The translations under genes and the position numbers were made by a program. Shown here in pieces: positions 28,619-59,953 of a stretch of 64,000 bases of DNA. A model generated the notes under the pieces. That model did not search any database, was not told the DNA's origin, and saw only the letters and a list, made by a program, of their open reading frames with translations. How positions within the stretch are numbered: position 1 is the stretch's first letter; each line of letters opens with the position of its first letter. Source of the stretch: a plasmid. The stretch lies in the sequence record NZ_CP013482.1; one strand, given 5' to 3'.

Positions 28619-28633
28619 AAGGAAATTCCACCG

Positions 28634-29053: not shown

Positions 29054-29055
29054 CT

Positions 29056-32695: not shown

Positions 32696-32713
32696 GCCTG
32701 GAGTAAATCAAAC

Positions 32714-33628: not shown

Positions 33629-33629
33629 C

Positions 33630-34073: not shown

Positions 34074-34076
34074 AGC

Positions 34077-35531: not shown

Positions 35532-35547
35532 TCGGGAGAGTTCAGCC

Positions 35548-36324
35548 ATGAATCTGAGAAATCTCATTTCGCATTTAGCGGCTAAAGTCGGATGCGCTAC
35601 CGCCATCGCCCTCAGCGTGCTGGCCGCGCCGGCACACGCCGGTATCCCCGTGATCGACGGGACGAACGTGGTTCAAACGACGGTCTCGGCGTTGAACTCG
35701 GTCGCCTCCGTTGCGAAGCAGATCGAGCAATACCAAACGCAGTTGCAGCAGTACGAAAACATGCTGCGCAACTCGCTCGCGCCTGCTGCGTATATCTGGG
35801 ACCAGGTCAACTCGACGATCAACAAGATGCTGAACCTGCAAGACACCCTTTCGGGTTTGAAAGGGCAATACGGGAGCATCGATGCGTACTTGAACCGGTT
35901 CCAGAACGTCGGGTACTACCGCCAATCGCCCTGTTTCACCAACACGGGATGCTCCGCGTCCGAAATGGAAGCTATCCAGCAAGGACGGACTGCTTGGTCG
36001 GATAGCCAGAAGAAGGCAAACGACGCGGCGATCAAGCAACTGGATCAGCAGCAATCGGCCCTTTCCAAAGACGCCGATACGGTCGCTCGGTTGCAATCGC
36101 AGGCATCCGGTGCCGGCGGTCAAATGGAAGCGTTGCAGGCCGCAAATCAGCTTGCCAGCACCCAGGCGAACTCACTTCTGAACATCCGAAGCCTTTTGCT
36201 CGCGCAGCAAAACATTCTCGTGACCCGCTCTCAAATTGAGGCCGATCGCGAGGCCCAGTTGCAGGCCGGTGACGAGCAATTTCGTCGCGGAGCCTTCACG
36301 AAAAGCCCCGCCGTTAGCTGGTGA
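35548..36324 (+). CDS. trbJ: TrbJ (VirB5-like)
   Basis: Signal peptide then helical domain; an OB site sits within codons 10-14. Confidence 0.75.
   Translation: MNLRNLISHLAAKVGCATAIALSVLAAPAHAGIPVIDGTNVVQTTVSALNSVASVAKQIEQYQTQLQQYENMLRNSLAPAAYIWDQVNSTINKMLNLQDTLSGLKGQYGSIDAYLNRFQNVGYYRQSPCFTNTGCSASEMEAIQQGRTAWSDSQKKANDAAIKQLDQQQSALSKDADTVARLQSQASGAGGQMEALQAANQLASTQANSLLNIRSLLLAQQNILVTRSQIEADREAQLQAGDEQFRRGAFTKSPAVSW
35575..35587. promoter_or_regulatory. KorB operator OB inside the trbJ signal-peptide coding region
   Basis: TTTAGCGGCTAAA. Confidence 0.7.
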
Positions 36325-36365
36325 AAGGAGAGGGCAATGACATTCAAAGCGGGAGTGATTACGCC

Positions 36366-38105: not shown

Positions 38106-38118
38106 CCACGAGATCACA

Positions 38119-38697
38119 ATGATTAAGGCTATAAAACGAATCCTGGTCACTCTCGCGTGTGCTTTCGCCATCGGACAGTCGCCGCAAGCGTCGGCCCAAG
38201 TTTTGACGGGCGACGTCGGGCTGGCCTGCGAAGCAATTCTCTGCCTTTCGTCCGGGTTCCGGCCCGGTGAATGCGCGCCGTCACTGGCCCGCTACTTCGG
38301 GATTAGCTTCAAATTCTGGACCGATACGCTGCGCGGTCGAATCAATTTTCTGAATCTTTGCCCTGCGGGTAACGTCCCCGGTGGGGCCGACATGCCGTCC
38401 CTCATCAACACGATCGCGAACGGTGCTGGGCGCTGCGATGCCGACTATCTCAACATGAACAACATCGTCGAGGTAGAGGTGCGCGAGTGCGACGGTTATG
38501 GCGGGGGTGACACCGGGCCGTCCTGCTACACATACACGAAGCGGGTCATCAGCAACGTGCTGCCCACATACTGCGTCGCATACACGCAGAGCCAGTATCA
38601 GTACCTTCTTGGCGTCAAATACGTTGGGGAACCGCTCAAGGACGGTCATTGGATCTCCGATGCGAGCGGCGCACTCGTTAACGGGGCGAGCAAGTAA
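38119..38697 (+). CDS. trbM: TrbM
   Basis: 192 aa with signal peptide, position after trbL. Confidence 0.65.
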   Translation: MIKAIKRILVTLACAFAIGQSPQASAQVLTGDVGLACEAILCLSSGFRPGECAPSLARYFGISFKFWTDTLRGRINFLNLCPAGNVPGGADMPSLINTIANGAGRCDADYLNMNNIVEVEVRECDGYGGGDTGPSCYTYTKRVISNVLPTYCVAYTQSQYQYLLGVKYVGEPLKDGHWISDASGALVNGASK

Positions 38698-38699
38698 CC

Positions 38700-39359
38700 A
38701 TGCCCGTCATCGAGATCCCCCAGCACCTGCCAGAGCGCGTCGCTTGCTCGATTGCCGCAGCGGTCAAATATGAGATCCCGGCAAATCTCATGCTCGCCGT
38801 TGCCGAACAAGAGGGTGGCTCGCCTGGACTTGTGAAGCGCAACGGCGATGGCACTGTCGACGTCGGGTCAATGCAGTTCAACACCAAGTACCTCGCCGAC
38901 TTGCGTCGTTACGGCATTTCGGCTGAGGACGTGTCCCAAGCCGGCTGCTATCCGTTCGACCTTGCCGCCTGGCGATTGCGTGGGCACATCCTGCGCGATG
39001 CGGGGGATCTCTGGACGCGTGCGGCTAACTACCACTCGCGCACCCCTTCAAAAAACGCCACCTATCGCGCTTACATCCTGCCGCGTGCTGCGCGCTGGCA
39101 GAAGTGGCTCGAAGCGCGCTTCGTAACCTATGACTCCACCGCTGGCGTTGTCGAAATGCGTGTGCCAACGCAGGGTAGGGCAGAGCATGCCGGCACAAGT
39201 GAGTCCCCTGCCCTGCCCTCCACTGTTCCCCTCGGGGTGACGTCGAACGCCTTTCGGGTCGACCCCGCGAACACTCCAGCAGCCAAGGCACTCGCCACTG
39301 TCTACGGCCGCAATCTGAATGCGCCGTCAGATTCTCCCGGCACGGATTTTAGCCGCTAA
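38700..39359 (+). CDS. trbN: TrbN lytic transglycosylase (VirB1-like SLT domain)
   Basis: AEQEGGS..GSMQFN SLT catalytic region; stop embedded in an OB (..FSR*). Confidence 0.8.
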   Translation: MPVIEIPQHLPERVACSIAAAVKYEIPANLMLAVAEQEGGSPGLVKRNGDGTVDVGSMQFNTKYLADLRRYGISAEDVSQAGCYPFDLAAWRLRGHILRDAGDLWTRAANYHSRTPSKNATYRAYILPRAARWQKWLEARFVTYDSTAGVVEMRVPTQGRAEHAGTSESPALPSTVPLGVTSNAFRVDPANTPAAKALATVYGRNLNAPSDSPGTDFSR

Positions 39360-39360
39360 A
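39348..39360. promoter_or_regulatory. KorB operator OB overlapping the trbN stop and the trbP start region
   Basis: TTTAGCCGCTAAA. Confidence 0.75.
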
Positions 39361-39363
39361 GCG

Positions 39364-40098
39364 ATGAAGAACTTGACCCAACTCACCGAGCTTCAACCTG
39401 CCAAAGTCGGCACCACACTGCCCCGTCTTCACCTCAATGACGGCGTGTTGGAATGCTGTAAGTGGTTGGCCCTGCTTTTGATGACCGGGGACCACATCAA
39501 CAAGTATTTGATGGGCGACTCCTCTCCGGTCCTATTCAACGCCGGCCGAGCGGCAATGCCGATATTCGTTTTTGTATTGGCATACAACTTGGCACGCCCC
39601 GGCGCATTCGAGCACGGGACGTATCACCGAGCTATTCAGCGACTGGTGATTTCGGGTCTCGTTGCCACACCGGCTTTCATGGCGTTGGGTGGACTGCTGT
39701 CTGGGTGGTGGCCGCTGAACATCATGTTCACGTTGCTCACACTGACGTGCGTTCTGTATCTGTATGAGTCCGGCGGATCCGTCAACAAATTTACCGCAGC
39801 GGCCATCTTTCTCGCTGCCGGTTCGTGCGTTGAATTCTGGTGGCCGGCAATATCTCTCGGCGCTTCTGTTTGGTTTTACTCCAGGCGACCGAGTGTCGCC
39901 GCATTGGCAGTCGGCACCATCTCCTGCGCAGCGCTCTACTTCGTCAACTCCAACTTCTGGGCGTTCGCGGCTTTCCCGCTGGTCGCCTGCGTGGCGCGTC
40001 TGAATTTTCGCGTCCCACGAACTCGCTGGATCTTCTACACGTACTACCCCGCGCATCTGATCTTGCTCCTGCTGGCCCAGCAGACGCTTTCCCGATAA
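39364..40098 (+). CDS. trbP: TrbP (TraX-family pilin acetylase-like membrane protein)
   Basis: Polytopic membrane protein at the end of the trb operon. Confidence 0.65.
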   Translation: MKNLTQLTELQPAKVGTTLPRLHLNDGVLECCKWLALLLMTGDHINKYLMGDSSPVLFNAGRAAMPIFVFVLAYNLARPGAFEHGTYHRAIQRLVISGLVATPAFMALGGLLSGWWPLNIMFTLLTLTCVLYLYESGGSVNKFTAAAIFLAAGSCVEFWWPAISLGASVWFYSRRPSVAALAVGTISCAALYFVNSNFWAFAAFPLVACVARLNFRVPRTRWIFYTYYPAHLILLLLAQQTLSR

Positions 40099-40203
40099 GA
40101 CCGCCCAAAGAATAACCACCACTCAACACGAGTGTCGCGGGTGATAAAGCGCATTTGTTTAGTTGTACTAATTACCTTCGGCATATATTACGAGGACGTT
40201 GAC

Positions 40204-43200
40204 ATGAAAATTCGCATTTCTCGCGATCTTTCAAGGAGAATCCGGGCCGGCTTCTGCGCCGGGTTGGTTCTCCTCTCCTCGCTGCAACCGTGCTTTGCTG
40301 CCGCCAATTTGGACGACGTGGTCAAGGCAAATGCCGCGTGGGTTCCGAAAGATCACATCAATCAGGCTGAGCTACAGGACAAAGAAAAGGACGCTGCCGA
40401 CAAGGAGCGTATCCAGGGCGAATGGAGTGCGCTGGACGTTTCTCTCGCCCGCGACCCGCTCGGCGCAGCAAAGCAACGAGCTACCGGCGCGGCGACCGAA
40501 GCCGCACAGCGGATGTTGAATCAATTCGGCTCTGCCAAGCTGTCCTTGGGTGCCGGAGACGGCTTTAAGAACGGCAGTCTGGATGTGCTGCTTCCGCTTC
40601 GAGACACCGACAGCAATCTCACCTTCACGCAGCTCGGCTTCCGCCGATCGAATGCGTTGTCCGACAGCTACCGTTCGACGTTGAACATCGGTGTTGGACA
40701 TCGACACTTCTTCAACGGTGGCAAATGGATGATCGGGGGGAATGCCTTCTTTGATCATGACATTTCCCGAGACCATCTTCGCGGTGGTCTCGGCCTTGAG
40801 GCATGGACTGATTACCTGCGTCTGTCCGCCAATGCCTACCTGCGCATGAGCGGGTGGCAAGACTCTCCGGATATTCGCGGCTATATGGAGCGTCCTGCGA
40901 ACGGCTGGGACGTTCGCGCCGAAGGATATTTGCCTGCATTCCCTCACCTTGGCGCACGCCTCTACTACGAACAGTATTACGGCCAGAAGGTCGGGCTGTT
41001 CGGTACTGGAAGTTTGCAGCGCAACCCCCATGCAATTACTGTCGGCCTCACTTATCAGCCAATCCCGCTGTTTTCATTGGATCTCGACTATCGCGCCGGC
41101 CAGGGTGGCGTGTCACAGACGACGGTTCGTGCGAACCTGACTTACAAAATTGGCGTTCCTCTCGATAAGCAATTGCGAGCCTCATCGGTTCGCGATTCAA
41201 AGCTCTTGAAAGGCAGTCGTTACGAGCTGGTCAACCGGAATAACGAGATCGTTCTGGAGTACCAAAAGAAGGAAGCTCGCCTGACAATCCCGACTCAAAT
41301 TAGCGGGTATCCGGGCACAAGCACGACGTTCGCGGTCAACTCGTACACAGCCCTTGGGTTCTCATCTTTTGCCTGGACTGGTACTGCTGCGTCGTTTGTT
41401 CAATCATATTCCGGCGGAACCGCTACGCTCGCGCTTCCTTCCTACAACCAGAGTGGAACCAATACGTACACTCTCCAAGCGGTTGCCACTGAGACGGATG
41501 GCGCTGTCGCACGATCCAACGTCATGACGGTGACTGTAAATCCGCTGTCGGTAAGTCTCGATCGGAGCAAACCTACCGCCTCCGCTGATGGGCGCGACTC
41601 TGTGACGTTTACCGCCACTGTGATCGGGACCAACTCTGAACCTCTTGCCGACCAGGCAGTTGATTGGAAAATTCCGGCCAGCGCTACCGTTGTTTCCTTA
41701 ATGGCGCGCACAAACAAGGCCGGGAAGGCTGACGCGATTGTCACGGCGAAGTCTGCCGCCGTGATTCACGTCACTGCGACCTCAACGTTGTCCGGCGAGA
41801 CGGCATCCAATTCCGCAGCGTTCATAGGCGATCCTACGACGGCTGGCGTTGCTACGCTTGTGGCTCAACCTACCGCGATCGCCGCTAACGGCACGAGCAA
41901 ATCGATATTGACGGCGACATTGAAGGACGCCAAGGGCATCACGCTTGGATATGGCGTTCCGGTCAAGTGGGCGACGACCCTTGGCACATTGTCCGCCGAC
42001 ACGAGTGTCACCGATTCCAACGGCCAGGCCGTCGTTACACTGACCTCGGCTACGACGGCGGGCACGGCCACGGTGACGGCTTCCGCTATCGCTGGCAATA
42101 AAACGGCTGACGTTGCATTTACGCCGGATGTGGCAACAGCAAATGTTGCCTCGCTCACGGCTGCGCCGGCAGCGATCCCCGCCAATGGCGCCAGTAAATC
42201 GACGCTGACGGCGACTATCAAGGACGCGAACGGAAACACGGTGGGCGCCGGTATTCCTGTCAAGTGGCAAACAACCGCCGGCACGCTTTCGGCTGCGAAC
42301 TCGCAGACCGATACGTCAGGCGTTGCAATCGTAACGCTTACCTCCGCGACCGCCGCAGGGATTGCGAACGTGACCGCCACGACCACGGCGGGCAACAAGA
42401 CCGCACCTGTTGCGTTTGTGCCGGACACTGCCACGGCTGGCGTGGTGTCGCTCGTGGCGAATCCGACCAGCATTGCGGCCAACGGCAGCAGCACGTCCGC
42501 ACTGACGGCCACGGTCAAAGACGCGAGCGGCAACACCGTAGGTGCTGGGGTCACGGTGAACTGGTCGACCTCGGCCGGTAGCCTGACGGGCACGTCGAGC
42601 GTGACCGACGCCAGCGGCATCGCCACGATGACCCTTAAGTCAGCAACGACGGTCGGCGTCGCTACGGTATCGGCAACGGCCGTCGCAGGCAGCAAGACGG
42701 CCAACGTGACCTTTGTGCCGGACACGGCTACGGCTGGTGTGGTGTCGCTCGTGGCGAATCCGACTAGCATCGCAGCCAACGGCAGCAGCACATCCACGCT
42801 GACGGCCACCGTCAAGGATGCTTACGGCAATGCGGTGGGTGCTGGCGTCACCGTGAACTGGTCGACCTCGGCCGGTAGCCTGACGGGCACATCGAGCGTG
42901 ACCGACGCCAGCGGTATCGCCATGATGACGCTCAAGTCGGCAACGACGGCGGGCACAGCCACGGTAACGGCAGCGGCAGTCGCCGGCAGCAAGACGGCCA
43001 ACGTGACCTTTGTGCCGGACATGACTACTGCGGCCGTGGTGTCGCTCGCGGCGAATCCGACCAGTATTGCGGCCAACGGCAGCAGCACTTCCGCTCTGAC
43101 GGCCACGGTCAAGGATGGCAACGGTAACGCAATGGGTGCCGGCGTCACCGTGAATTGGACGACCACGGCGGGTAGCCTGGCGGGCACGTCGAGCGTGACC

Positions 43201-44865
43201 GACGCCAGCGGCATCGCCACGATGACGCTCAAGTCGGCAACGACGGTCGGCGTCGCCACGGTAACAGCAGCGGCCGTCGCCGGCAGCAAGACGGCCAACG
43301 TGACCTTTGTGCCGGACACAGCCACGGCGGGCGTCGTTTCGCTCATGGCGAATCCGATCAGCATCACGGCCAACGGCAGCAGCACGTCCGCACTGACGGC
43401 TTCGGTGAAGGATGCGAGCGGCAACACCGTGGGTGCTGGTGTCACCGTGAACTGGTCGACCACGGCCGGTAGCCTGACAGGTACGTCGAGCGTGACCGAC
43501 GCCAGCGGCATTGCCACGATGACGCTCAAGTCGGCTACGACGGCGGGCACGGCCACGGTAACGGCTGCGGCCGTCGCCGGTAGCAAGACGGCCAGCGTGG
43601 CGTTTGTGCCGGATACGGCCACGGCGGGCGTGGTGTCGCTGGTGGCGAATCCGACGAGCATTGCGGCCAACGGCAGCAGCACGTCGACGCTGACCGCCAC
43701 TGTCAAGGACGCCAACGGTAACGCCTTGGGGGCCGGTATCGCTGTGAACTGGTCGACCACGGCGGGGAGCCTGACGGGAACGTCGAGCGTGACGAACGCT
43801 AGCGGCGTTGCGACGATGACGCTCACATCGCCCACGACGGTCGGTGTCGCCACGGTAACGGCTGCGGCGGTCGCCGGTAGCAAGACGGCCAGCGTGACGT
43901 TTGTTGGCGATCCGGCAACGGCCCGCGTGGTCAGCCTGACGCCGCCGACTGCCACTGCATATGTTGGCGGGATTGCGACCACGTACACGGCCACGGTGAA
44001 GGACGCCAACGGCTTCACGGTTGGGGCCGGTGTCTCGGTCACATGGTCTGTGAGTGCCGGAACGCCGAGCGCCACCAGCACCGTGACTAATTCATCCGGT
44101 CAGGCGTCGATCAACGTTGTATCACCGAACGTGGTCGGTAGCGGGACGATCACGGCCAGTGCCGTCGCTGGTTCAGCGAATGCGACGATCAACTACGTTG
44201 CCAACATGAACACCCTGCGCGTTGTTTCTTTGTCGCCCAACATGAACAATGTCCCGGCAAATGGAAGCTCAACGGTGATGTTGCTTTCGTCTGTGCGCGA
44301 CGCATGGGGCAACAATCCGGGCGCGGGAGTCACGGTCAACTGGTCGGACTCGTTGGGGCGCTTGTCGGCGGGAGCTACGGCCACTGACGGGAACGGAACG
44401 GCGGTGAACTACCTGACGGCCCCCGGAGCGGCGGGCACCTCGTCCGTGAACGCGAGGATCGCGGCTACTGGTGACGGCGGTGTAGGCACAGCCGTTACGT
44501 GGGTGAGTACCTTTAGCGCTGCGAACGTCAGTGTGTCAACGTCGCCGGATATGCAGCCGAACGCGAACGGCATCCTGTACGTGAGCGGCTTCATCACTAC
44601 GGCAACGCAGTCCTCTAGCGGGACGGTGTACATCACCGGCATCACCTACAACAACAGCTATGGCTCACAAAGTGCGTACATGGAAATCAACGGCGGCACC
44701 TATTGGGCCAACGCATCCGGCCTCTCGATTCCTTGGGGGTCGGGTGGGTCACTGGTGATACAACAGCACGAGGGCACGGGCATGGTTCCGGCCGTCTTCC
44801 AGTCGGTCACGTTGTCGCTTAGCACGGGACAAACGGTCACGCTTAATAGCGGGTCGGCACAGTGA
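40204..44865 (+). CDS. Giant inverse autotransporter adhesin (intimin/invasin family): signal peptide, beta-barrel translocator, ~9 Big_1 Ig-like repeats, C-terminal domain
   Basis: N-terminal barrel region; ~100-aa repeats VVSLVANPTSIAANGSSTS..TATVKDA..G..VNWSTTAGSL; ORF begins at 40132. Confidence 0.8.
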   Translation: MKIRISRDLSRRIRAGFCAGLVLLSSLQPCFAAANLDDVVKANAAWVPKDHINQAELQDKEKDAADKERIQGEWSALDVSLARDPLGAAKQRATGAATEAAQRMLNQFGSAKLSLGAGDGFKNGSLDVLLPLRDTDSNLTFTQLGFRRSNALSDSYRSTLNIGVGHRHFFNGGKWMIGGNAFFDHDISRDHLRGGLGLEAWTDYLRLSANAYLRMSGWQDSPDIRGYMERPANGWDVRAEGYLPAFPHLGARLYYEQYYGQKVGLFGTGSLQRNPHAITVGLTYQPIPLFSLDLDYRAGQGGVSQTTVRANLTYKIGVPLDKQLRASSVRDSKLLKGSRYELVNRNNEIVLEYQKKEARLTIPTQISGYPGTSTTFAVNSYTALGFSSFAWTGTAASFVQSYSGGTATLALPSYNQSGTNTYTLQAVATETDGAVARSNVMTVTVNPLSVSLDRSKPTASADGRDSVTFTATVIGTNSEPLADQAVDWKIPASATVVSLMARTNKAGKADAIVTAKSAAVIHVTATSTLSGETASNSAAFIGDPTTAGVATLVAQPTAIAANGTSKSILTATLKDAKGITLGYGVPVKWATTLGTLSADTSVTDSNGQAVVTLTSATTAGTATVTASAIAGNKTADVAFTPDVATANVASLTAAPAAIPANGASKSTLTATIKDANGNTVGAGIPVKWQTTAGTLSAANSQTDTSGVAIVTLTSATAAGIANVTATTTAGNKTAPVAFVPDTATAGVVSLVANPTSIAANGSSTSALTATVKDASGNTVGAGVTVNWSTSAGSLTGTSSVTDASGIATMTLKSATTVGVATVSATAVAGSKTANVTFVPDTATAGVVSLVANPTSIAANGSSTSTLTATVKDAYGNAVGAGVTVNWSTSAGSLTGTSSVTDASGIAMMTLKSATTAGTATVTAAAVAGSKTANVTFVPDMTTAAVVSLAANPTSIAANGSSTSALTATVKDGNGNAMGAGVTVNWTTTAGSLAGTSSVTDASGIATMTLKSATTVGVATVTAAAVAGSKTANVTFVPDTATAGVVSLMANPISITANGSSTSALTASVKDASGNTVGAGVTVNWSTTAGSLTGTSSVTDASGIATMTLKSATTAGTATVTAAAVAGSKTASVAFVPDTATAGVVSLVANPTSIAANGSSTSTLTATVKDANGNALGAGIAVNWSTTAGSLTGTSSVTNASGVATMTLTSPTTVGVATVTAAAVAGSKTASVTFVGDPATARVVSLTPPTATAYVGGIATTYTATVKDANGFTVGAGVSVTWSVSAGTPSATSTVTNSSGQASINVVSPNVVGSGTITASAVAGSANATINYVANMNTLRVVSLSPNMNNVPANGSSTVMLLSSVRDAWGNNPGAGVTVNWSDSLGRLSAGATATDGNGTAVNYLTAPGAAGTSSVNARIAATGDGGVGTAVTWVSTFSAANVSVSTSPDMQPNANGILYVSGFITTATQSSSGTVYITGITYNNSYGSQSAYMEINGGTYWANASGLSIPWGSGGSLVIQQHEGTGMVPAVFQSVTLSLSTGQTVTLNSGSAQ
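41830..44220. repeat. Tandem ~300-bp DNA repeats (Big_1 modules); five central copies (42421..43920) are near-identical
   Basis: Direct repetition of gtgccggacacggc(c/t)acggc(t/g)gg(c/t)gtggtgtcgctcgtggcgaatccgac. Confidence 0.9.
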
Positions 44866-45028: not shown

Positions 45029-45790
45029 ATGATTTTCCCTGTTATCGTTTTGGCACTTGGCTTGAACGGCGTCGTCCAAGGCAACATCAACGACCACGGG
45101 ACGCACGAGAAAGAAATTGAGGCCACTCAGATCCGCGAGCTTCGCGACGCTCGCGCTGCGAATCAGTGGTGCCGTGACAATGACCGCAGCCGCCAGAGTA
45201 ACGGCAACTACATCAATTGCGAGCCTTACGAGGAACTTTACCTGACGCGTTTGAATGATCGTCGCGAAACGTTGATCGCCCAAATCGCGGAAAAGCGGGG
45301 TGCGGCTGTGGCATTGAAGGCTGCGACGCCGAGTGCCGACGAGGCGGCGGTGGCCGATATCGGTTTCTTCGGAAAATTGGGCAACTATATGGGTACACCG
45401 GTGACTACCGCGATGGTTGCATACCAAAATCAGAACGAGTGCCTAGAAGATGTGCGCGATGGTGACGGCGACGATTGCTCGGTTCTTGCGGCACGGCTAA
45501 AAGTCGCGGTGCGGGGGGCTCAGGAATATCGCGAAAAGCTGATTGCGGAAGGCCCGGGCTTCCTGCGTGACCCAAGCCACCGACTCATCATCACAATGGA
45601 AAGTGATGAACTAAAAGCCGCCGCTGCGGCGATCACGGCGAAGGTGAACGCCGAGCAGTCGTTGGCCGATTGCGGGGCCGGGCTGGCGATCGGCCGTCGC
45701 TCGGACTGCACCACGCAAAGCGTCATCTATCACTCGGCAGTCGATAGCCTCGACCGTGCGTCAACGGCAAAGCCGGCCACCTCGGAATGA
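45029..45790 (+). CDS. Secreted hypothetical protein (signal peptide MIFPVIVLALGLNGVVQG)
   Basis: GAGAGGA RBS; AT-rich upstream region; Cys-containing. Confidence 0.55.
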   Translation: MIFPVIVLALGLNGVVQGNINDHGTHEKEIEATQIRELRDARAANQWCRDNDRSRQSNGNYINCEPYEELYLTRLNDRRETLIAQIAEKRGAAVALKAATPSADEAAVADIGFFGKLGNYMGTPVTTAMVAYQNQNECLEDVRDGDGDDCSVLAARLKVAVRGAQEYREKLIAEGPGFLRDPSHRLIITMESDELKAAAAAITAKVNAEQSLADCGAGLAIGRRSDCTTQSVIYHSAVDSLDRASTAKPATSE

Positions 45791-45875: not shown

Positions 45876-46121
45876 ATGACTGAACCAAAGCGAGGGCGTG
45901 GGCGACCGATTGGAACGACGAAACCGGATGCGAAGTCATCCAGCGAGCGTGTAAAGGAATGGGAAAAAAACTTGGTCGACTCGGGCGGGAGAATCATTCG
46001 CCAGATTCGGCTCACGCCAGAGGCAAACGCCGCTCTAAAGACGTTTGAGGACGAGTACAAAACGCCGCAAGAGGCAATCTATGCCGCTATCCTCGAAAAG
46101 GGTCAGCGGCACCGCCGATAG
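45876..46121 (+). CDS. Small AT-hook (KRGRGRP) plus RHH-like DNA-binding protein
   Basis: Paralog-like to 60303..60593. Confidence 0.45.
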   Translation: MTEPKRGRGRPIGTTKPDAKSSSERVKEWEKNLVDSGGRIIRQIRLTPEANAALKTFEDEYKTPQEAIYAAILEKGQRHRR

Positions 46122-46143
46122 GCATTTACGTCGACGTTGCACA

Positions 46144-46800
46144 CTACTGATCGTCACCCGCGCGCCTCCAACTCGTGCCGTCGATCCACCAGCCGCGCAC
46201 CTCAAGCGCGGCAACAAACTCCCCGCGAAGTCCGACAAGCCTGCTCGAGTCGACCGCTTTCCATCCATATGCTCGCGCTTGTTCCACTCCAATAAGCTCG
46301 CATACGGCCCTCTTGGCCAACTCCCGCGCAACCTGCTTTGACTGCCCAATACGTTCTGCCGTATCTGTCAGGCTTGTGCCGTGCAGCAGCGAAAGGAACA
46401 CTGGGATCGCACATCGAGCATGGACCACTTCAACATCGAGCGTGCCAATTTCGGCGGCTGCAAGTTGACGCGCCACGTCGTCCAGTACCGGGGCCGGCAC
46501 GGCCAAAGCAGGTTTTATCTGACGGCGCTGGCCTGCACGCAACATGGTGATTGCTGGCGCAAGTATGCCAGCGTGCGCGCGTATGACAGGGGCTGTAGGA
46601 AGGCCCGTGTATGGCTTGAGCGCAGCGGGCCGCTCATGGGGCTCTATACGCGCCCAGACCGCGCGTAACACCTCCCATGTCACCTGACGAACCTTTCCAA
46701 CTGGAACGCCAAGCCGACTTGCGGCTGCGGTGTAGTCCTCGCCGGAAAGGATCGACTCAAACAGGTCAATTTCCCTCTGGTGGCGTGAATTCGATTTCAT
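46144..46800 (-). CDS. Hypothetical HTH regulator
   Basis: 218 aa; C-terminal TDTAERIGQSKQVARELAKRA helix-turn-helix. Confidence 0.5.
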   Translation of the reverse strand: MKSNSRHQREIDLFESILSGEDYTAAASRLGVPVGKVRQVTWEVLRAVWARIEPHERPAALKPYTGLPTAPVIRAHAGILAPAITMLRAGQRRQIKPALAVPAPVLDDVARQLAAAEIGTLDVEVVHARCAIPVFLSLLHGTSLTDTAERIGQSKQVARELAKRAVCELIGVEQARAYGWKAVDSSRLVGLRGEFVAALEVRGWWIDGTSWRRAGDDQ

Positions 46801-46904
46801 TCGGGGTTGGTCGACAAGTGAATTGCGGCGTCAGTCTACGCGATTTCTGACCGCAAACGGCGTCCTTGACGCTTGCCACAGGCGCCCATACACTGCCGCC
46901 ACTT

Positions 46905-47080
46905 TGGTGCCCGCTGCCGCCCCTGTGCCGGCAGTAGTTAAACGGGAATCAGGCGGCTCCCCCTCTCCGGGCGGTGGCTAACCTGAGCTGCCCCCGCAAC
47001 GGTAAGCGTCTACTCGATACGTTGCCCCTCACACCACTGCGCGCAAGCGTGGGAAGGTGGGGCCGCGTGAGCGCCAGCCC
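46905..47080 (+). ncRNA. Cobalamin (AdoCbl) riboswitch in the btuB leader
   Basis: GGTGCC.., AAACGGGAA, CCCGCAACGGTAAG, B12-box-like ACCACTG..GGGAAGGTG; upstream promoter TTGACG/TACACT near 46869..46899. Confidence 0.6.
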
Positions 47081-47202
47081 GGATACCGGCCAGAGAGGGG
47101 AGTTGCGCCGAATTTTTCGCCAAAGACGAGTTTGACGCGCACTCGCATAGCGCCACGGCCTGCGGGGAGCGGGCCGGGTGAAATCGCACCGGAACTCTAA
47201 CA

Positions 47203-49056
47203 ATGCAAACGAAACTCGCGGCCGGCGCTGCCGCGCTCGCGCTCATTTCCTCGCCGCACGTTGCAACAGCCCAAACCGCCGACGACACAGGCAGCGCGGT
47301 ACTGCCCAAAACCGTTGTCACCGCCGACAGGGCACCCCAACGCCTTCAGGACGCTATCCCACAGACCACGCTTATCGACAGCCAGGCGATCACGGATTCC
47401 GCCGCCAACGACCTGCCCGGCCTGCTGCGCTTGGCACCGGGCGCTCAGGTCGTCAGCAACGGTGGGCCGGGGTCTACTTCAAGCCTATTCCTTCGCGGCT
47501 CGCAAGCCAGCCAGTCGCTCGTCCTTATTGACGGCGTGCGAGTCGATTCGGTAAGCGCCGGCTCAGCGCAGATTTCGCAAATCCCACTCGATCAAATCGA
47601 TCATATCGAAATCGTGAACGGCAACGTGTCTGCGCTGTACGGGTCAGGGGCGATTGGGGGCGTCGTTCAAATATTCACGAAGGACGGCGGCAATCATCCG
47701 CCTAAATTCTTCGCCTCGGCAGGGTACGGCAGCTATCACACACAGACGCAGAATGCCGGCGTAAGTGGTGCGCTCGATGCCGACGGTCGGACGACTTTTA
47801 GCGCGTCCCTGGCGCGGTACAAGACCGATGGTTTTTCATCCATCGACCCGGCCAAGCAACCAAGCGTAAACCCGAACGCCAACGGCTACCTCAACGAGAG
47901 TGGTAGCGCATCTATCAAACACCGATTCGTGAACGGTTGGGACGTGGGTGTCCGCTACTTTCAATCCAACGGCTACAACAGCTACGACAATGCTTACGGC
48001 CAACCTACCGACTTGAACTACGGTATTAGCAAGGTGCAGCAGGCATCCGTTTTCGCCAACGGAAACGTAACCGACTGGTGGAAAACGCACGTTACGATCG
48101 CAGCCGGCAACGACCGTAGTATCCAGAAAACGAACGGCCTCTATAACGGCCGGTTTGACACGGACAATAGGCAATACACATGGCAGAATGATTTCGCCAT
48201 CGCCAGCGGCCAGAAGATCCTCGCGGGCTATGAACACCTCGACCAGAGCTTTGATTCTAGTGCCTATGCCGCCCCCTCCCGTCGCGTCGACTCAGGCTTT
48301 ATCGGCTACAACGGGCGCTTTGGTGCTCATCAGTTTCAAGCTAACCTGCGGCGCGACCAGTACTCCGATTTCGGCGGTGCAAGCAGCTATTACCTCGGGT
48401 ACGGCTACGACATAACTGATAGCTGGAAGGTTCTTGCGAGCTATTCGGACGCCTTCCGCGCGCCGACCTTCAACGACCTGTACTACCCCTACGGCGGCAA
48501 CACCAACATTCGCCCAGAGACAAGTCACTCCGTCGAAGCTGGAGTGCAGTACGCCACCGACGCGCTTGGCGTGATGCGTTTGACAGTGTTCCAAACTCGC
48601 TACTCGAATCTCATTCAGTATGCGTCAGACCTTGCGGGCAACTACACGGCACAGAATGTGGGCACGGCCAAGGTGCAGGGCCTGGAAGGCTCTTGGAGTG
48701 GGCAGGTTTACAAGACCGACGTGCGCGCTTCTTTCACTTTCCAAAATCCTGTGAACGAGGACACGCATACCGATCTGAGCCGCCGCGCACGGCACTTCGC
48801 GTCGTTCGCTGTCAACCGGAACATTGAGAGTGTGCGCGTGGGCGCTGAATGGATTCTGAGCGGTGCGCGGCTCGATGGCACCAAGCACCTCGGCGGATAC
48901 GGCCTAGTGAACCTGTCGGCCCGCTACAACATCACAAAGGCGTGGTACGTCGCCCTGCAAGTGCAGAATCTGCTGAACAAGGATTACGAGCTTGCCTACT
49001 CGTATGAAACGCCCAAACGCAGCGCTTTCATCACTCTCGGCTGGCAGCAATTCTGA
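47203..49056 (+). CDS. btuB: TonB-dependent outer-membrane cobalamin receptor BtuB-like
   Basis: Signal peptide, TonB box region, plug and barrel, C-terminal aromatic residue (..GWQQF). Confidence 0.8.
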   Translation: MQTKLAAGAAALALISSPHVATAQTADDTGSAVLPKTVVTADRAPQRLQDAIPQTTLIDSQAITDSAANDLPGLLRLAPGAQVVSNGGPGSTSSLFLRGSQASQSLVLIDGVRVDSVSAGSAQISQIPLDQIDHIEIVNGNVSALYGSGAIGGVVQIFTKDGGNHPPKFFASAGYGSYHTQTQNAGVSGALDADGRTTFSASLARYKTDGFSSIDPAKQPSVNPNANGYLNESGSASIKHRFVNGWDVGVRYFQSNGYNSYDNAYGQPTDLNYGISKVQQASVFANGNVTDWWKTHVTIAAGNDRSIQKTNGLYNGRFDTDNRQYTWQNDFAIASGQKILAGYEHLDQSFDSSAYAAPSRRVDSGFIGYNGRFGAHQFQANLRRDQYSDFGGASSYYLGYGYDITDSWKVLASYSDAFRAPTFNDLYYPYGGNTNIRPETSHSVEAGVQYATDALGVMRLTVFQTRYSNLIQYASDLAGNYTAQNVGTAKVQGLEGSWSGQVYKTDVRASFTFQNPVNEDTHTDLSRRARHFASFAVNRNIESVRVGAEWILSGARLDGTKHLGGYGLVNLSARYNITKAWYVALQVQNLLNKDYELAYSYETPKRSAFITLGWQQF

Positions 49057-49121
49057 CGTCCCGAGTGCATATCGCCAGCCCCAGCGGCTGGCGATCCTCC
49101 TGACGTAAATCAACAACGACG

Positions 49122-49832
49122 TTACTTCCCATTTTCCGAAACGCCGAACTCAGCGGCTTCGCCATCTCGCGTGCAGGAAGCCCAAATTCGCTTAACCTGG
49201 CTGATACTGCATCCCGCCATACGCGCTGTTTCAGCGATGGTGTGTCCAGCTTTCCTAAACGCGATAACGCGCTCGTTCACGGCAGTATTGGGCTTGCGCC
49301 CACGATACTTTCCAGCAGCTCGGGCAAGAGTTATGCCCTGCGCCTGGCGCTGCCGCCGGGTCTCATACTCGTCACGGGCCATCTGCAAAGCGAGCCGCAT
49401 GAGCATTTGCTGCACCGACTCAAGGACAACCCGAGCAACGCCCTCCGATTTCTCGGACAACTCCGACAAATCGATCACACCAGGCACGGCCAACGTCGCT
49501 CCTTTGTCGCGTATCGATCCAATCAGGCGCTCGGCGTCGGGCAATGGAAGGCGACTAATGCGATCAATTTTTTCCGCGATGACCACATCCCCCGGTTGCA
49601 GGTCAGCAATCATTCGCAGTAGCTCTGGTCTATCCACGCGGGCACCGGACGCTTTCTCACGGTACACACCTGCTACGTAGTACCCTGCCCTCCTCGCCTC
49701 GTCTACAAGCCCCTCTTGCCTCTCTATGTCCTGTTGCGCAGTGCTTACGCGCAAATAGATTCGGGCGACCTTGATAGCCGCCCGATCACGCTTGCGAGAA
49801 GCGGCGGTTTTGCTCGTCTGACGCGCGACCAC
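49122..49832 (-). CDS. Serine recombinase (resolvase/invertase family)
   Basis: YLRVSTAQQD catalytic Ser region; C-terminal HTH. Confidence 0.8.
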   Translation of the reverse strand: MVARQTSKTAASRKRDRAAIKVARIYLRVSTAQQDIERQEGLVDEARRAGYYVAGVYREKASGARVDRPELLRMIADLQPGDVVIAEKIDRISRLPLPDAERLIGSIRDKGATLAVPGVIDLSELSEKSEGVARVVLESVQQMLMRLALQMARDEYETRRQRQAQGITLARAAGKYRGRKPNTAVNERVIAFRKAGHTIAETARMAGCSISQVKRIWASCTRDGEAAEFGVSENGK

Positions 49833-49838
49833 CTCGCT

Positions 49839-50162
49839 TTATCCTTCCGGGGAGATCAAAAAGCGATCCCGCTTTTTACCAACTATCCAAGCGGGCGCTC
49901 GCCCGCGACCACTCCATGTGGCACCCGAAGCAGGGTCCCGGTACTTAGCCGCAAGCGGGCCGCTGCGCTTGCGGCGCGCCCCAAATAGATCCCGCTCGGT
50001 CAATTGGTACTCAACGATAAGGCGTCGAACATCGGCCACAACACTGCCTTTTTCCGCCGCCAGTGCTTTAGCCGCCTCGGCTTCTAATGCCTCAACGCGC
50101 TTGAGGGTCTCTGCTTCAATTGCCTCGATCTGTGCGCGAATCTCTGCATATTTCTTCGTCAT
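49839..50162 (-). CDS. H-NS-like nucleoid-associated (stealth) protein
   Basis: Coiled-coil N-terminus; C-terminal H-NS DNA-binding core TWSGRGRAPAW. Confidence 0.75.
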   Translation of the reverse strand: MTKKYAEIRAQIEAIEAETLKRVEALEAEAAKALAAEKGSVVADVRRLIVEYQLTERDLFGARRKRSGPLAAKYRDPASGATWSGRGRAPAWIVGKKRDRFLISPEG

Positions 50163-53735: not shown

Positions 53736-53750
53736 TATGTTTTCCAGTTG

Positions 53751-54083
53751 CTAAAGTGAACTGATGCGCGCCGGGTCTGTACCTACAGACCGGATGGCGA
53801 GCCATACTTGCAAGCGCTCTTCCGGTTCAGCCACTGGATGGGCGAGATCAATCCCGAAGGGCTTCACAATAGCGAACACCCCGGGCGCAATGTTGTACAG
53901 TCGGTCGACTCGCCGCTCGGCTCCTATGACCTCGCGAATTCTCTGGAAAAGGCGCTGCCTCTCCCATCGGACTGGGGACCTAGCCCTAAACGGCAAACCC
54001 GATAGGTGCGCTAGGGCAGCGTCTATGTCTGATTCGGATACCACCATCGCCTGCGGTGATCTCCAGAGGGTTGCGAGACTCAT
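53751..54083 (-). CDS. Hypothetical protein (operon gene 9)
   Basis: ORF 110 aa. Confidence 0.4.
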   Translation of the reverse strand: MSLATLWRSPQAMVVSESDIDAALAHLSGLPFRARSPVRWERQRLFQRIREVIGAERRVDRLYNIAPGVFAIVKPFGIDLAHPVAEPEERLQVWLAIRSVGTDPARISSL

Positions 54084-54104
54084 ATCGCCTTTTCCGCGGT
54101 TTTC

Positions 54105-59246: not shown

Positions 59247-59953
59247 TCAGATCCGCGTCGCAAGCCAAACCACAGGATCAGAACCGGAAATCAACAGAAA
59301 CAGCCCCGCACCCGACAGAAACGGGCCAAAAGGCAACACGTCTTCCGCGCGACTACCCCATCTAATCACCGCGAGGAATAAGCCCGTCGCGGCCGCAATC
59401 AGGAGCATTGACGGAACTGAGGCGACGCCCATCCACGCGCCTATACCGGCGGCCAGTTTAAAGTCGCCCTGCCCCATGCCGTCCTCGCCTTTGCGGATCC
59501 GCCGGAATGCATTTACCGCCCAGAGCGCAGCAAAAGCCGCTGTCGCGCCGGCGACCGACTCGGCTACAGACGTGCGCCACCCCATCCAATTCGCAAAATT
59601 CCGACGCCAATCAACGGGAGGGTGATGACGTCGGGAAGCATGAGTGTTTGGTAGTCGACGAGGGCAAGCAGGGTCAGCAACCATGCCAGAGTTGCCCCCA
59701 CGACGACGATGCCCGCACTCTGACTTCTAGCCGTCAGAGCCGCACATATCGCGGCAAACGCTAAGGTGACGGCCGCTTTTGTACTTGCTTGGTACGCAAC
59801 CCCCTCATCGCACTCGTTCTCGCATGCGAGAACCATTGCCGCTCGCGACGCCGCAGGGAAAAGGAGCGCCCCTGCGCAAAGCCCCGCAGCGCCACTCAGC
59901 ACCAGGCTCAACAGGTTCATGACTGCGCTGTCCTGCTCCGTCCGTGCCACCAC
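59247..59953 (-). pseudogene. Type IV prepilin peptidase (A24 family) split by a frameshift near 59564..59684
   Basis: N-part LVDYQTLMLPDVITLPL in ORF 59564..59953; C-part GQGDFKLAAGIGAWMG in ORF 59247..59684. Confidence 0.55.

What the first reader, a model, noticed from the sequence alone, without database searches (positions are those of the whole stretch)
46869..49056. Cobalamin riboswitch plus btuB-like TonB-dependent receptor as plasmid cargo
The leader contains riboswitch hallmarks (GGTGCC, AAACGGGAA, CCCGCAACGGTAAG, ACCACTG..GGGAAGG). They precede a weak-RBS start of a 617-aa TonB-dependent receptor. A plasmid-borne B12 importer could confer a fitness benefit in B12-limited niches. 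BtuB homologues are also colicin and phage receptors.
Basis: partly seen in the sequence, partly recalled or inferred. Interest (0 to 1): 0.55.

Follow-up and report, generated by a model that had tools for sequence, protein, structure and literature searches.

The report
Plasmid-borne B12 riboswitch and BtuB receptor
A conjugative plasmid of the cystic-fibrosis bacterium Pandoraea apista carries a vitamin-B12-sensing RNA switch in front of an outer-membrane B12 receptor gene; this is a well-known kind of module in an uncommon place, not a new mechanism.

Summary
Window 46888-47108 (+) is a full-length cobalamin riboswitch aptamer (Rfam RF00174, 84.3 bits against a gathering score of 31.5, E 2.6e-19). 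It lies behind a conserved sigma-70 promoter and 94 nt ahead of a 617-aa TonB-dependent receptor (47203-49056). That receptor matches BtuB best by sequence, HMM and predicted fold, not siderophore receptors.

The window is an IncP-like conjugative plasmid, almost certainly pPA35 of Pandoraea apista. The 2016 paper on pPA35 does not mention this module.

The nearest relatives outside the plasmid lineage (65-73% identical) are chromosomal btuB genes of Paraburkholderia, Burkholderia and Trinickia. All ten chromosomal loci checked carry the same riboswitch. In P. xenovorans the gene heads a btuC/cobT/cobS/cobC/btuF cluster. The plasmid took only promoter, leader and btuB.

A diverged sister plasmid fragment keeps the same arrangement (synonymous divergence dS 1.6, dN/dS 0.026), so the gene is old, selected cargo.

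The leader has an L13 hairpin whose GGGG loop complements L5 CCCC. Seven related leaders carry a matching double change (UCCUC with GAGGA), which supports the standard kissing-loop switch.

Mobile B12 transporters are already known, so this is a new member of a known kind. Interest is low to moderate.

The parts
46866..46894 (+). Sigma-70-type promoter: -35 TTGACG (46866-46871), 17-nt spacer, -10 TACACT (46889-46894). The predicted transcription start is near 46900-46902, at the 5' edge of helix P1.
   Evidence: It is the only promoter-like site on the + strand in 46100-49900. Both hexamers are kept in the diverged sister copy L084 while the spacer has changed. Of 64 related leaders tested, all have TA(A/C)ACT 10-12 nt before GGTGCC, and 63 have TTGAC(G/T) at 17-nt spacing. 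The start site itself is inferred.
46888..47108 (+). Cobalamin riboswitch aptamer, class I (AdoCbl type, with the P6 extension). The core P1 helix is about 46902-46908 paired with 47088-47094. The B12 box is at 47074-47091 (CCAGCCCGGAUACCGGCC).
   Evidence: RF00174, 84.3 bits, E 2.6e-19, full model. This score equals the best of ten chromosomal relatives, which range from 49 to 84.3 bits. The B12-box region is invariant in 23 aligned leaders.
46991..46996 (+). Loop L5 (CCCCCG). C92-C95 are the proposed kissing-loop partners of L13 G64-G67 (last two digits of the window coordinates).
   Evidence: Taken from the Rfam alignment. 76 leaders pair L5 CCCCC with L13 GGGGA(A); 7 leaders pair UCCUC with GAGGA; none is mixed. 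For the covarying pair the counts are CG:19, UA:2, with 0 broken.
47109..47156 (+). Variable linker (J1/13) between the aptamer and the regulatory hairpin.
   Evidence: This is the least conserved part of the leader between the window and L084 and among 23 leaders.
47157..47175 (+). Regulatory hairpin P13/L13: stem GGCCUGC / GCGGGCC with loop GGGGA (47164-47168).
   Evidence: GCGGGGA is invariant in alignment A2. RNAalifold predicts the stem. The stem is 95.9% paired, with two pairs changed on both sides. It is predicted in every single-sequence fold.
47174..47192 (+). Candidate SD-occluding hairpin: CC[G]GGUG - AAAUCG - CACCGG. Its 3' arm holds the first two bases of the weak SD GGAA (47191-47194). 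It shares C74 and C75 with P13.
   Evidence: Read directly from the sequence. The inner 4 bp are predicted in L084. The only difference in L084 is the bulged G47176 to A. In the window's own fold, GGUG pairs upstream instead, so this element is tentative.
47203..49056 (+). btuB-type TonB-dependent outer-membrane corrinoid receptor, 617 aa. Signal peptide about residues 1-23 (cleavage after ATA, inferred). TonB box TVVTA at residues 37-41 (47311-47325). Plug at residues 52-154. 22-strand-type barrel from residue 177 to the C-terminus.
   Evidence: The identical protein is recorded from Pandoraea apista on 9-10 contigs, the longest 77,293 bp. dN/dS is 0.026 against the 92%-identical sister copy.
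49071..49095 (.). 10-bp GC-rich hairpin (AUCGCCAGCC-CCAGC-GGCUGGCGAU) between the convergent btuB and resolvase genes. It has no U tract and may be a transcript-end structure.
   Evidence: Read from the sequence. The terminator scan does not call it. It is absent from L084, where the gap between the genes is only 25 nt. Its function is not established.

Best explanation
The region is a complete, self-contained regulatory and transport module: promoter, class-I (adenosylcobalamin-type) cobalamin riboswitch, and a BtuB-type outer-membrane corrinoid receptor. It is the only B12-related gene found in the visible 64 kb of an IncP-like conjugative plasmid (pPA35 type) of Pandoraea apista.

Proposed working: a conserved sigma-70 promoter transcribes a leader of about 300 nt. 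When intracellular AdoCbl is low, the start region is accessible and BtuB is made. BtuB is exported and uses the host's TonB-ExbBD to pull corrinoids across the outer membrane. The host's own BtuFCD-type system must complete import, because the plasmid carries none in the window.

When AdoCbl is high, the aptamer binds it. Loop L5 (CCCC) then docks onto loop L13 (GGGG) of the downstream hairpin, locking the expression platform in a form that lowers translation initiation at the weak GGAA/ATG site. Rho-dependent termination may follow as a secondary effect.

Shown here: the identity and intactness of the aptamer; BtuB-type sequence and fold; the plasmid context; descent from a chromosomal riboswitch-btuB unit of Burkholderiaceae; strong purifying selection; and L5-L13 complementarity with covariation in relatives.

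Inferred: ligand response, the translational mode of control, the substrate, and dependence on host Btu/TonB proteins.
For: Aptamer: RF00174 at 84.3 bits, full length. The sister copy L084 scores 80.8 bits and the nearest chromosomal-type relative L085 scores 78.9 bits.

Receptor: the best HMM is TIGR01779 TonB-B12 at 427 bits, against 137 or less for siderophore and heme families. E. coli BtuB aligns over the full length at E 2e-47. The AlphaFold model (pLDDT 73.6, pTM 0.75) has E. coli BtuB as its top 12 PDB matches, with TM-scores of 0.84-0.89. The mature length is about 594 aa, the same as E. coli BtuB. The TonB box is TVVTA, against LVVTA in E. coli.

Orthologue context: all 10 chromosomal orthologue loci checked have RF00174 directly upstream. 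In P. xenovorans LB400 the orthologue is followed by a btuC-like gene, cobT, cobS, cobC and btuF.

Capture as a unit: DNA similarity to 80 chromosomal loci spans only about 46860 to 49050-49063. The promoter hexamers are shared with those loci.

Selection: against L084, btuB is 92.4% identical in protein but 81% in DNA, with dS 1.63 and dN/dS 0.026. The leader is 89% identical, which is better than the coding DNA.

Switch: the P13/L13 hairpin is invariant and L5-L13 covary. The L5-L13 interaction is the known cobalamin-dependent regulatory switch (PMC6158498). AdoCbl binding sequesters the RBS in E. coli btuB (PMC12870672). There is no intrinsic terminator on the + strand of the leader.

Plasmid: and PMC5064223.
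Against: No experiment supports ligand binding, regulation or transport.

The protein scores below the curated equivalog cut-offs of both BtuB models (427 against 599.7; 261 against 836). Operon-embedded chromosomal orthologues also score only 409-434 bits, so this is a property of the clade.

Three of the acidic residues of the E. coli BtuB calcium site are replaced (D179S, D193N, D195N, from the alignment). These residue numbers are recalled from Chimento et al. 2003.

The physical link between the kissing loop and the start site is unresolved. L13 lies 35 nt upstream of the ATG. The candidate SD hairpin rests on two sequences only, and the window's own minimum-energy fold pairs GGUG upstream instead. 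The whole-leader fold is no more stable than shuffled sequence (z = -0.61).

The L5-L13 covariation may be a single evolutionary event in one clade.

I could not establish whether the host has BtuFCD, TonB or any B12-dependent enzyme. 13 kb of pPA35 lie outside the window.
Confidence: 0.78

Rival explanations
1. The riboswitch and receptor are as described, but control is mainly transcriptional. Ligand-induced folding would expose the nascent leader or early coding RNA to Rho, or change RNA stability, rather than directly occluding the ribosome-binding site.
For: L13 is 35 nt from the ATG and does not contain the SD. No robust SD-sequestering helix is conserved across the family. Translational riboswitches are reported to also use Rho-dependent termination and RNA decay (PMC6158498).
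Against: There is no intrinsic terminator in the leader. The E. coli btuB precedent is RBS sequestration (PMC12870672). The sequence between P13 and the ATG is almost invariant between the window and L084, as expected if the start region is part of the switch.
Confidence: 0.25
2. The receptor is B12-regulated, but its main substrate or main selective value is not cobalamin uptake. It might import cobinamide or another corrinoid, or cobalt complexes. Alternatively, it might matter chiefly as a surface receptor exploited by phages or bacteriocins, or used by the plasmid itself.
For: The score is below the BtuB equivalog cut-offs. The calcium-site residues differ from E. coli. The gene stands alone without btuFCD. 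BtuB is a known colicin and phage receptor in E. coli (established knowledge; PDB 1ujw, the BtuB-colicin E3 complex, is among the fold hits).
Against: Orthologues sit in btuC/cobT/cobS/cobC/btuF clusters behind the same riboswitch. The plasmid protein differs from them uniformly along its length, with no remodelling of particular loops. Being a phage or bacteriocin receptor is a cost and would not by itself produce a dN/dS of 0.026.
Confidence: 0.12
3. The module is a decaying passenger, a recently captured chromosomal fragment with no role on the plasmid.
For: It lacks its operon partners, and the published description of pPA35 does not mention it.
Against: The ORF is intact and identical in 9-10 assemblies. 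A sister plasmid lineage separated by dS 1.6 keeps the promoter, the aptamer (80.8 bits), the platform and the ORF, with dN/dS 0.026 and the same neighbours. There are no flanking transposon repeats.
Confidence: 0.03

Closest known systems
Chromosomal riboswitch-btuB units of Paraburkholderia, Burkholderia and Trinickia (for example P. xenovorans LB400 chromosome 1, locus L032)
   Same: Same promoter hexamers, same RF00174 aptamer, same P13/L13 hairpin, same weak (A/G)GGAA SD, and an orthologous receptor 65-72% identical with the same invariant NPNANGY loop.
   Different: The chromosomal gene heads a B12 uptake and salvage cluster (btuC-like, cobT, cobS, cobC, btuF) and lies downstream of 6S RNA. 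The plasmid copy stands alone between an unknown 218-aa gene and a resolvase. It also lacks the low-complexity Ser/Ala/Pro linker that the chromosomal proteins have between the signal peptide and the TonB box. In a simple NJ tree the plasmid lineage branches outside these three genera, next to an unidentified relative, P0003.
E. coli btuB leader (class-I AdoCbl riboswitch) and BtuB (PDB 1NQE to 1NQH)
   Same: Same riboswitch family and class, and the same gene under control. The fold matches at TM-scores of 0.84-0.89, with the same mature length and TonB box. The E. coli switch represses translation by sequestering the RBS (PMC12870672).
   Different: Only about 25-30% protein identity. Three calcium-site aspartates are replaced. 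The expression-platform sequence is unrelated apart from the L5-L13 logic. The E. coli gene is chromosomal.
Plasmid pCMU01 (380 kb) of Methylobacterium extorquens CM4
   Same: A plasmid-borne btuB preceded by a cobalamin riboswitch, interpreted as AdoCbl-controlled corrinoid uptake that the chromosome lacks (PMC3621897).
   Different: pCMU01 is a 380-kb catabolic megaplasmid carrying the whole btuBFCD cluster plus cob genes, tied to B12-dependent chloromethane metabolism. Here a 77-kb IncP-like conjugative plasmid carries btuB alone, and no B12-dependent function is visible in the window.
Bacteroidetes conjugative transposons and phage carrying btuGBFCD (Frye et al. 2021)
   Same: Corrinoid transporters mobilised by conjugative elements. 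Transfer and B12 transport were shown experimentally, with competitive effects (PMC8759732).
   Different: A different phylum, integrative elements rather than a plasmid, complete transport loci with the BtuG lipoprotein, and receptors only distantly similar (15-17% identity in the fold hits).

Membership tests
Cobalamin riboswitch (Rfam RF00174, clan CL00101), class I / AdoCbl type | Covariance-model score at or above the curated gathering score, over the full model | tested here: met
   84.3 bits against 31.5, model positions 1-189 of 189, E 2.6e-19.
Cobalamin riboswitch (Rfam RF00174, clan CL00101), class I / AdoCbl type | Conserved B12 box and core junction sequences | tested here: met
   GCCACUG, GGGAAGG and CCAGCCCGGAUACCGGCC align to the consensus. 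The last is invariant in 23 related leaders.
Cobalamin riboswitch (Rfam RF00174, clan CL00101), class I / AdoCbl type | Peripheral P6 extension, which distinguishes class I from class II | tested here: met
   Model positions of about 85-160 (the P6 extension helices) are all matched at 47005-47080. That this feature marks class I is established knowledge; PMC12870672 names the E. coli btuB switch class I.
Cobalamin riboswitch (Rfam RF00174, clan CL00101), class I / AdoCbl type | Regulatory L5-L13 loop-loop (kissing) interaction with a downstream hairpin | tested here: met
   L5 CCCC (46992-46995) complements L13 GGGG (47164-47167). Among relatives, 76 leaders have CCCCC with GGGGA(A), 7 have UCCUC with GAGGA, and none is mixed. 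The pair counts are CG:19, UA:2, 0 broken. The covariation may be a single event.
Cobalamin riboswitch (Rfam RF00174, clan CL00101), class I / AdoCbl type | Binds a cobalamin and changes expression of the downstream gene | not testable with these tools
   Needs in-line probing or ITC, and reporter assays.
BtuB-type TonB-dependent vitamin B12 receptor (NCBIfam TIGR01779 / NF007926) | N-terminal TonB box, plug domain and C-terminal beta-barrel | tested here: met
   Plug PF07715 at E 1.2e-22 and barrel PF00593 at E 8.8e-42. TVVTA aligns with the E. coli TonB box LVVTA.
BtuB-type TonB-dependent vitamin B12 receptor (NCBIfam TIGR01779 / NF007926) | Score above the curated equivalog cut-off | tested here: not met
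   TIGR01779 scores 427.3 against 599.7, and NF007926 scores 261.3 against 836. BtuB models are still the top hits by a margin of about 290 bits. Chromosomal orthologues embedded in btu/cob clusters score the same (409-434 bits). The shortfall therefore reflects how far the Burkholderiaceae clade lies from the model's seed sequences, not a peculiarity of the plasmid copy. I call it BtuB-type, not a curated equivalog.
BtuB-type TonB-dependent vitamin B12 receptor (NCBIfam TIGR01779 / NF007926) | Small 22-strand barrel fold closest to solved BtuB structures | tested here: met
   The top 12 Foldseek PDB hits are all E. coli BtuB, with TMt 0.84-0.89 and rmsd 3.1-3.8 A. Siderophore receptors follow with lower target TM-scores and E-values 6-8 orders weaker. 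The model is of moderate confidence (pLDDT 73.6).
BtuB-type TonB-dependent vitamin B12 receptor (NCBIfam TIGR01779 / NF007926) | Calcium-binding acidic residues of extracellular loops (E. coli D179, D193, D195, D230, D241; numbering recalled from Chimento et al. 2003) | tested here: inconclusive
   In the HMMER alignment D230 and D241 (and Y229) are kept, but D179, D193 and D195 become S, N and N. The replacing NPNANGY loop is invariant in the whole clade. Loop alignment at about 27% identity is uncertain.
BtuB-type TonB-dependent vitamin B12 receptor (NCBIfam TIGR01779 / NF007926) | Genomic association of the orthologous group with cobalamin riboswitches and btu/cob genes | tested here: met
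   All 10 chromosomal orthologue loci checked have RF00174 upstream. btuC-like, cobT, cobS, cobC and btuF follow the orthologue in locus L032.
BtuB-type TonB-dependent vitamin B12 receptor (NCBIfam TIGR01779 / NF007926) | TonB-dependent transport of cobalamin | not testable with these tools
   Needs uptake or growth assays.
IncP-1-like (P-type) conjugative plasmid backbone | TrfA-type initiator, KorB/IncC partition and control genes, a trb mating-pair operon, and a MOBP relaxase with TraG and an oriT-region RNA | tested here: met
   RPA initiator, KorB, IncC-like ParA, TrbB/E/F/G/I/L/M, TraX, TraI-like relaxase and TraG; traJ-II RNA at 91.8 bits. DNA identity to catalogued IncP and related plasmids is low, with only short 70-83% stretches, so I say 'IncP-like' and do not assign a named subgroup.

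The most novel reading that the evidence does not exclude
A lineage of small IncP-like conjugative plasmids has long carried a lone, riboswitch-gated btuB as a portable 'outer-membrane step' of B12 scavenging. The plasmid would read the host's intracellular AdoCbl pool through its own RNA sensor. It would display the receptor only when the host is short of B12, supplying a receptor that P. apista lacks on its chromosome while limiting cost and exposure to phages and bacteriocins. This would be a nutritional trait, carried on a plasmid and regulated by a metabolite-sensing RNA, in a cystic-fibrosis pathogen.
Probability: 0.25. Interest if true: 0.5.

Novelty: new member of a known kind. Interest (0 to 1): 0.3.

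Why it matters
Riboswitch-controlled btuB is textbook biology, and B12 transporters on mobile elements have been described, so nothing here changes current understanding.

There are three modest points of interest. First, BtuB-type receptors are rare on catalogued plasmids. Only 34 of 72,556 PLSDB records have one at E <= 1e-40, all on records of 147 kb or more, several of which are mislabelled chromosomes, and 3 are predicted conjugative. A 77-kb self-transmissible plasmid carrying one is therefore unusual.

Second, the gene has been kept with its promoter and riboswitch under very strong purifying selection across a deep plasmid divergence. That argues it pays its way in a clinically relevant host.

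Third, it is a clean natural case of a plasmid carrying a metabolite-sensing RNA that reads host physiology.

If the P. apista chromosome lacks its own BtuB, the plasmid would determine the strain's access to host- or community-derived B12 in the cystic-fibrosis airway.

Tried and rejected
- **Transposon capture.** A repeat search over 40000-64000 found no convincing terminal inverted or direct repeats around the module. The only pair flanking it (45680-45699 with 49062-49081, 20 nt, 80%) is at chance level.
- **Near-identical plasmids in PLSDB.** There was no megablast match for the module. The cargo half matched only a 359-nt IS256-associated stretch in a P. oxalativorans plasmid. The backbone matched only short 70-83% pieces of IncP, Xanthomonas and Bordetella plasmids.
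- **More copies of the plasmid-type leader.** An exact-pattern scan of JGI metagenome contigs found none.
- **An intrinsic terminator in the leader.** None was found on the + strand. The U-run at 47117-47121 is not preceded by a qualifying stem.
- **A conserved SD-sequestering helix across the family.** RNAalifold supports only P13 and a linker helix that the window and L084 do not form. Single-sequence folds disagree. I therefore left this step as inference.
- **GGGGAG in L13 as the true SD for the GTG at 47178.** Rejected. That GTG is out of frame with btuB, and chromosomal relatives have no start codon there.
- **B12-dependent enzymes or other btu/cob genes on the plasmid.** None was found among the ORFs scanned.
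- **Whether Pandoraea has a chromosomal btuB or makes B12.** Three literature searches gave nothing usable.
- **Function of the divergent 218-aa neighbour.** No Pfam or NCBIfam match.
Full report

Yes. The quoted motifs are all present. They form part of a full-length match to the Rfam cobalamin riboswitch model RF00174 at 46888-47108 (+): 84.3 bits against a gathering score of 31.5, E 2.6e-19. It is one of only two Rfam hits in the 64-kb window; the other is a traJ-II RNA at 15635-15734.

The ORF 47203-49056 (+) encodes 617 aa. Its ATG is the first start codon after an in-frame TGA. The protein has a TonB-dependent receptor plug domain and a beta-barrel. Chromosomal relatives have (A/G)GGAA at the same position, so this weak site is typical of the family.

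**2. What replicon is this?**

The window holds:
- a MOBP-type relaxase (12496-15180, -) and a TraG coupling protein (10542-12473, -);
- an ArdC-like polyvalent protein and a topoisomerase;
- KorB and IncC (20031-22183, -);
- a TrfA-like RPA initiator (25395-26519, -);
- a trbB-to-trbP/TraX operon (27623-40098, +).

It is therefore an IncP-like conjugative plasmid.

The exact BtuB protein is on record from Pandoraea apista on 9-10 contigs, the longest 77,293 bp. That length equals the published size of plasmid pPA35 of P. apista DSM 16535T (77,293 bp, 57.81% G+C, from sputum of a cystic-fibrosis patient; PMC5064223).

That paper discusses replication, partition, toxin-antitoxin, conjugation and virulence genes. 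It contains no occurrence of 'TonB', 'cobalamin', 'riboswitch', 'receptor' or 'vitamin'. The module has not been discussed in that paper, whatever automated annotation may say.

The module lies in the accessory region after trbP. Its neighbours there are a 1577-aa inverse autotransporter, several genes of unknown function, a serine resolvase, an H-NS-like protein and a Phd/PIN toxin-antitoxin pair.

**3. What is the receptor?**

Three independent comparisons place it with BtuB.
- **HMMs.** The best NCBIfam models are the two BtuB equivalogs (TIGR01779 at 427 bits, NF007926 at 261 bits). The generic siderophore, heme and transferrin subfamilies reach at most 137 bits.
- **Solved structures, by sequence.** E. 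coli BtuB aligns over the full length at E 2e-47. Every other receptor matches only the plug region, at E 1e-19 or weaker.
- **Predicted fold.** An AlphaFold model (pLDDT 73.6, pTM 0.75) has E. coli BtuB as its top 12 Foldseek hits in the PDB (TMt 0.84-0.89, rmsd about 3.1-3.8 A). FepA, PfeA, Cir and the Bacteroides BtuB proteins follow.

The mature protein would be about 594 aa, as in E. coli. The TonB box (TVVTA) aligns with E. coli LVVTA.

Two caveats apply.

First, the scores are below the curated equivalog cut-offs. The chromosomal orthologues of P. xenovorans and B. multivorans, and the two closest relatives, score the same (409-434 bits). This is therefore a property of the Burkholderiaceae clade.

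Second, three aspartates of the E. coli calcium site are S, N and N here (alignment; residue numbers from memory of Chimento et al. 2003). The replacing NPNANGY loop is invariant throughout the clade.

**4. Where did it come from?**

The closest proteins after the identical P. apista entries are:
- a 93%-identical protein on a 5-kb Logan contig (P0002, locus L084);
- a 73%-identical one (P0003, locus L085);
- hundreds of 63-72%-identical chromosomal proteins of Paraburkholderia, Burkholderia and Trinickia, many named 'vitamin B12 transporter' by their sources.

All ten chromosomal loci scanned have RF00174 immediately upstream of the orthologue, and 6S RNA further upstream. In P. xenovorans LB400 the orthologue is followed by a btuC-like permease, cobT, cobS and cobC, with btuF nearby. 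This is strong contextual evidence that the orthologous group handles corrinoids.

DNA similarity between the window and 80 such loci begins at about 46860-46883 and ends at 49049-49063. It therefore covers exactly the promoter, the leader and the ORF, and nothing from the rest of the operon.

The promoter is shared. The window has TTGACG, a 17-nt spacer, then TACACT. Of 64 related leaders tested, all have TA(A/C)ACT 10-12 nt before GGTGCC, and 63 have TTGAC(G/T) at 17-nt spacing.

No transposon-like repeats flank the module. A simple NJ tree places the plasmid pair with P0003, outside the three named genera. I do not regard that tree as robust, and the donor genus is unknown.

**5. Is it maintained or decaying?**

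L084 has the same gene order: the 218-aa unknown gene (-), leader-btuB (+), resolvase (-), H-NS-like (-).

Against the window, its btuB is 92.4% identical in protein but only 81% in DNA. Synonymous divergence dS is 1.63, dN is 0.043, and dN/dS is 0.026. The neighbouring resolvase is comparably diverged (dS 2.0, dN/dS 0.05).

The leader is 89% identical, which is better than the coding DNA. The changes fall in variable loops and the linker, and both promoter hexamers are intact. L084 still scores 80.8 bits against RF00174.

The module has therefore been carried with these neighbours through a long divergence under strong purifying selection. That rules out a decaying passenger. The inference that L084 is a plasmid relative rests on this shared neighbourhood only.

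**6. How does the switch probably work?**

The aptamer has the P6 extension typical of class I (AdoCbl-type) switches.

Downstream, an alignment of 23 leaders shows one invariant element: a hairpin GGCCUGC-GGGGA(A)-GCGGGCC, at window 47157-47175. RNAalifold predicts its stem. Its loop GGGG complements L5 CCCC (46992-46995).

Across 83 leaders, 76 combine L5 CCCCC with L13 GGGGA(A). Seven (L024, L045, L051, L062, L065, L077, L081) combine L5 UCCUC with L13 GAGGA. None is mixed.

On a reduced alignment, the covarying pair is CG in 19 distinct rows and UA in 2, with none broken. The P13 stem is 95.9% paired, with two pairs changed on both sides. The structure beats all slid controls. The seven variants may descend from one event, so this counts as one compensatory change, not seven.

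The L5-L13 loop-loop contact is the established cobalamin-dependent regulatory switch of this riboswitch family (PMC6158498). In E. coli btuB, AdoCbl binding sequesters the ribosome-binding site (PMC12870672).

There is no intrinsic terminator on the + strand of the leader. I therefore infer translational repression, possibly reinforced by Rho.

I could not show how L13 docking reaches the start site 35 nt away. A small hairpin at 47174-47192 would bury the first two bases of GGAA, and its only change in L084 is the bulged base. However, the window's own minimum-energy fold pairs the same GGUG upstream, and no equivalent helix is conserved in the chromosomal leaders. This step is inference.

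**7. What does the plasmid gain?**

No other btu or cob gene and no B12-dependent enzyme was found among the window's ORFs. 13 kb of pPA35 were not visible.

The receptor must therefore rely on the host's TonB-ExbBD and an inner-membrane importer.

I could not determine whether P. apista has its own BtuB. No Pandoraea chromosomal protein appears among the 120 best hits, which run down to 63% identity, so any such protein is more distant. Literature searches gave nothing. This is the main open question.

**8. Comparison with what is known, and novelty.**

Riboswitch-controlled btuB is the founding example of riboswitches. Plasmid-borne riboswitch-btuBFCD is described on the 380-kb pCMU01 (PMC3621897). 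Conjugative transposons and phage carrying btuGBFCD have been shown to transfer and to confer B12 transport in Bacteroidetes (PMC8759732).

The difference here is one of degree: a lone btuB on a small self-transmissible plasmid. In PLSDB, only 34 of 72,556 records contain a BtuB-type match at E <= 1e-40. All are 147 kb or larger, several are mislabelled chromosomes, and only 3 are predicted conjugative.

**Verdict.** This is a new member of a known kind, of low to moderate interest.

Noticed in passing
window 15635-15734 (-): A traJ-II RNA (Rfam RF01760, 91.8 bits against a gathering score of 40), immediately upstream of the leftward-transcribed (-) relaxase gene at 12496-15180 and before the rightward (+) ParA-like gene at 16374. 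It marks the oriT/traJ region of the IncP-like backbone.
   Followed up: no
window 40132-44865 (+): A 1577-aa inverse autotransporter (intimin/invasin type): an IAT beta-domain followed by about ten Big_1/Invasin_D3 repeats. The repeats are encoded by 297-nt tandem DNA repeats at 42009-43793. It is a candidate adhesin carried as plasmid cargo in a cystic-fibrosis isolate, and the pPA35 paper contains neither 'invasin' nor 'intimin'.
   Followed up: partly
window 46144-46800 (-): A 218-aa gene transcribed divergently from the btuB promoter. It has no Pfam or NCBIfam match. It is conserved next to btuB in the sister copy L084 (73% protein identity, dN/dS 0.16). Its function is unknown, and I did not examine whether it relates to btuB.
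   Followed up: partly
window 49122-50162 (-): A serine resolvase (236 aa) followed by an H-NS-like protein (107 aa), convergent with btuB and conserved with it in L084. They may be plasmid multimer-resolution and silencing functions. H-NS-like silencing of the neighbouring cargo was not examined.
   Followed up: no
window 49071-49095: A perfect 10-bp GC-rich hairpin without a U tract, between the convergent btuB and resolvase genes. It is absent from L084, where the gap between the genes is only 25 nt.
   Followed up: no
window 53738-54096: The only near-identical DNA match (99.7%) of the cargo half to any PLSDB plasmid. It matches in two pieces spread over 1.8 kb of Pandoraea oxalativorans plasmid NZ_CP011519.2, under an IS256-family transposase annotation. 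This suggests a shared insertion-sequence remnant or target site among Pandoraea plasmids.
   Followed up: no
window 59247-59953 (-): Two overlapping ORFs (59247-59684 and 59564-59953) each match a different half of the type IV prepilin peptidase family Peptidase_A24. This could be a frameshifted gene or a sequencing error.
   Followed up: no
window 18697-19656 (-) and 4097-7183 (-): Two unusual backbone proteins: a Fic domain fused to a KfrB domain (319 aa), and a 1028-aa ArdC-N / zincin-metallopeptidase / DUF5710 polyvalent protein.
   Followed up: no
loci L024, L045, L051, L062, L065, L077, L081 (chromosomal btuB leaders of the P. phymatum / P. piptadeniae group): A variant of the btuB leader in which L5 is UCCUC and L13 is GAGGA, instead of CCCCC and GGGGA(A). 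In these leaders the motif GGCCCAC occurs twice: once as the 5' arm of P13 and again directly before the SD (GGCCCACAGGA). This suggests alternative pairing of the P13 3' arm.
   Followed up: partly
locus L085 (Logan DRR343892): The closest relative outside the plasmid lineage (73% identical) also has RF00174 upstream. It is followed by unrelated genes (PALP, amidase) rather than btuC, so a lone riboswitch-btuB also occurs in a chromosome-like context in an unidentified organism.
   Followed up: partly
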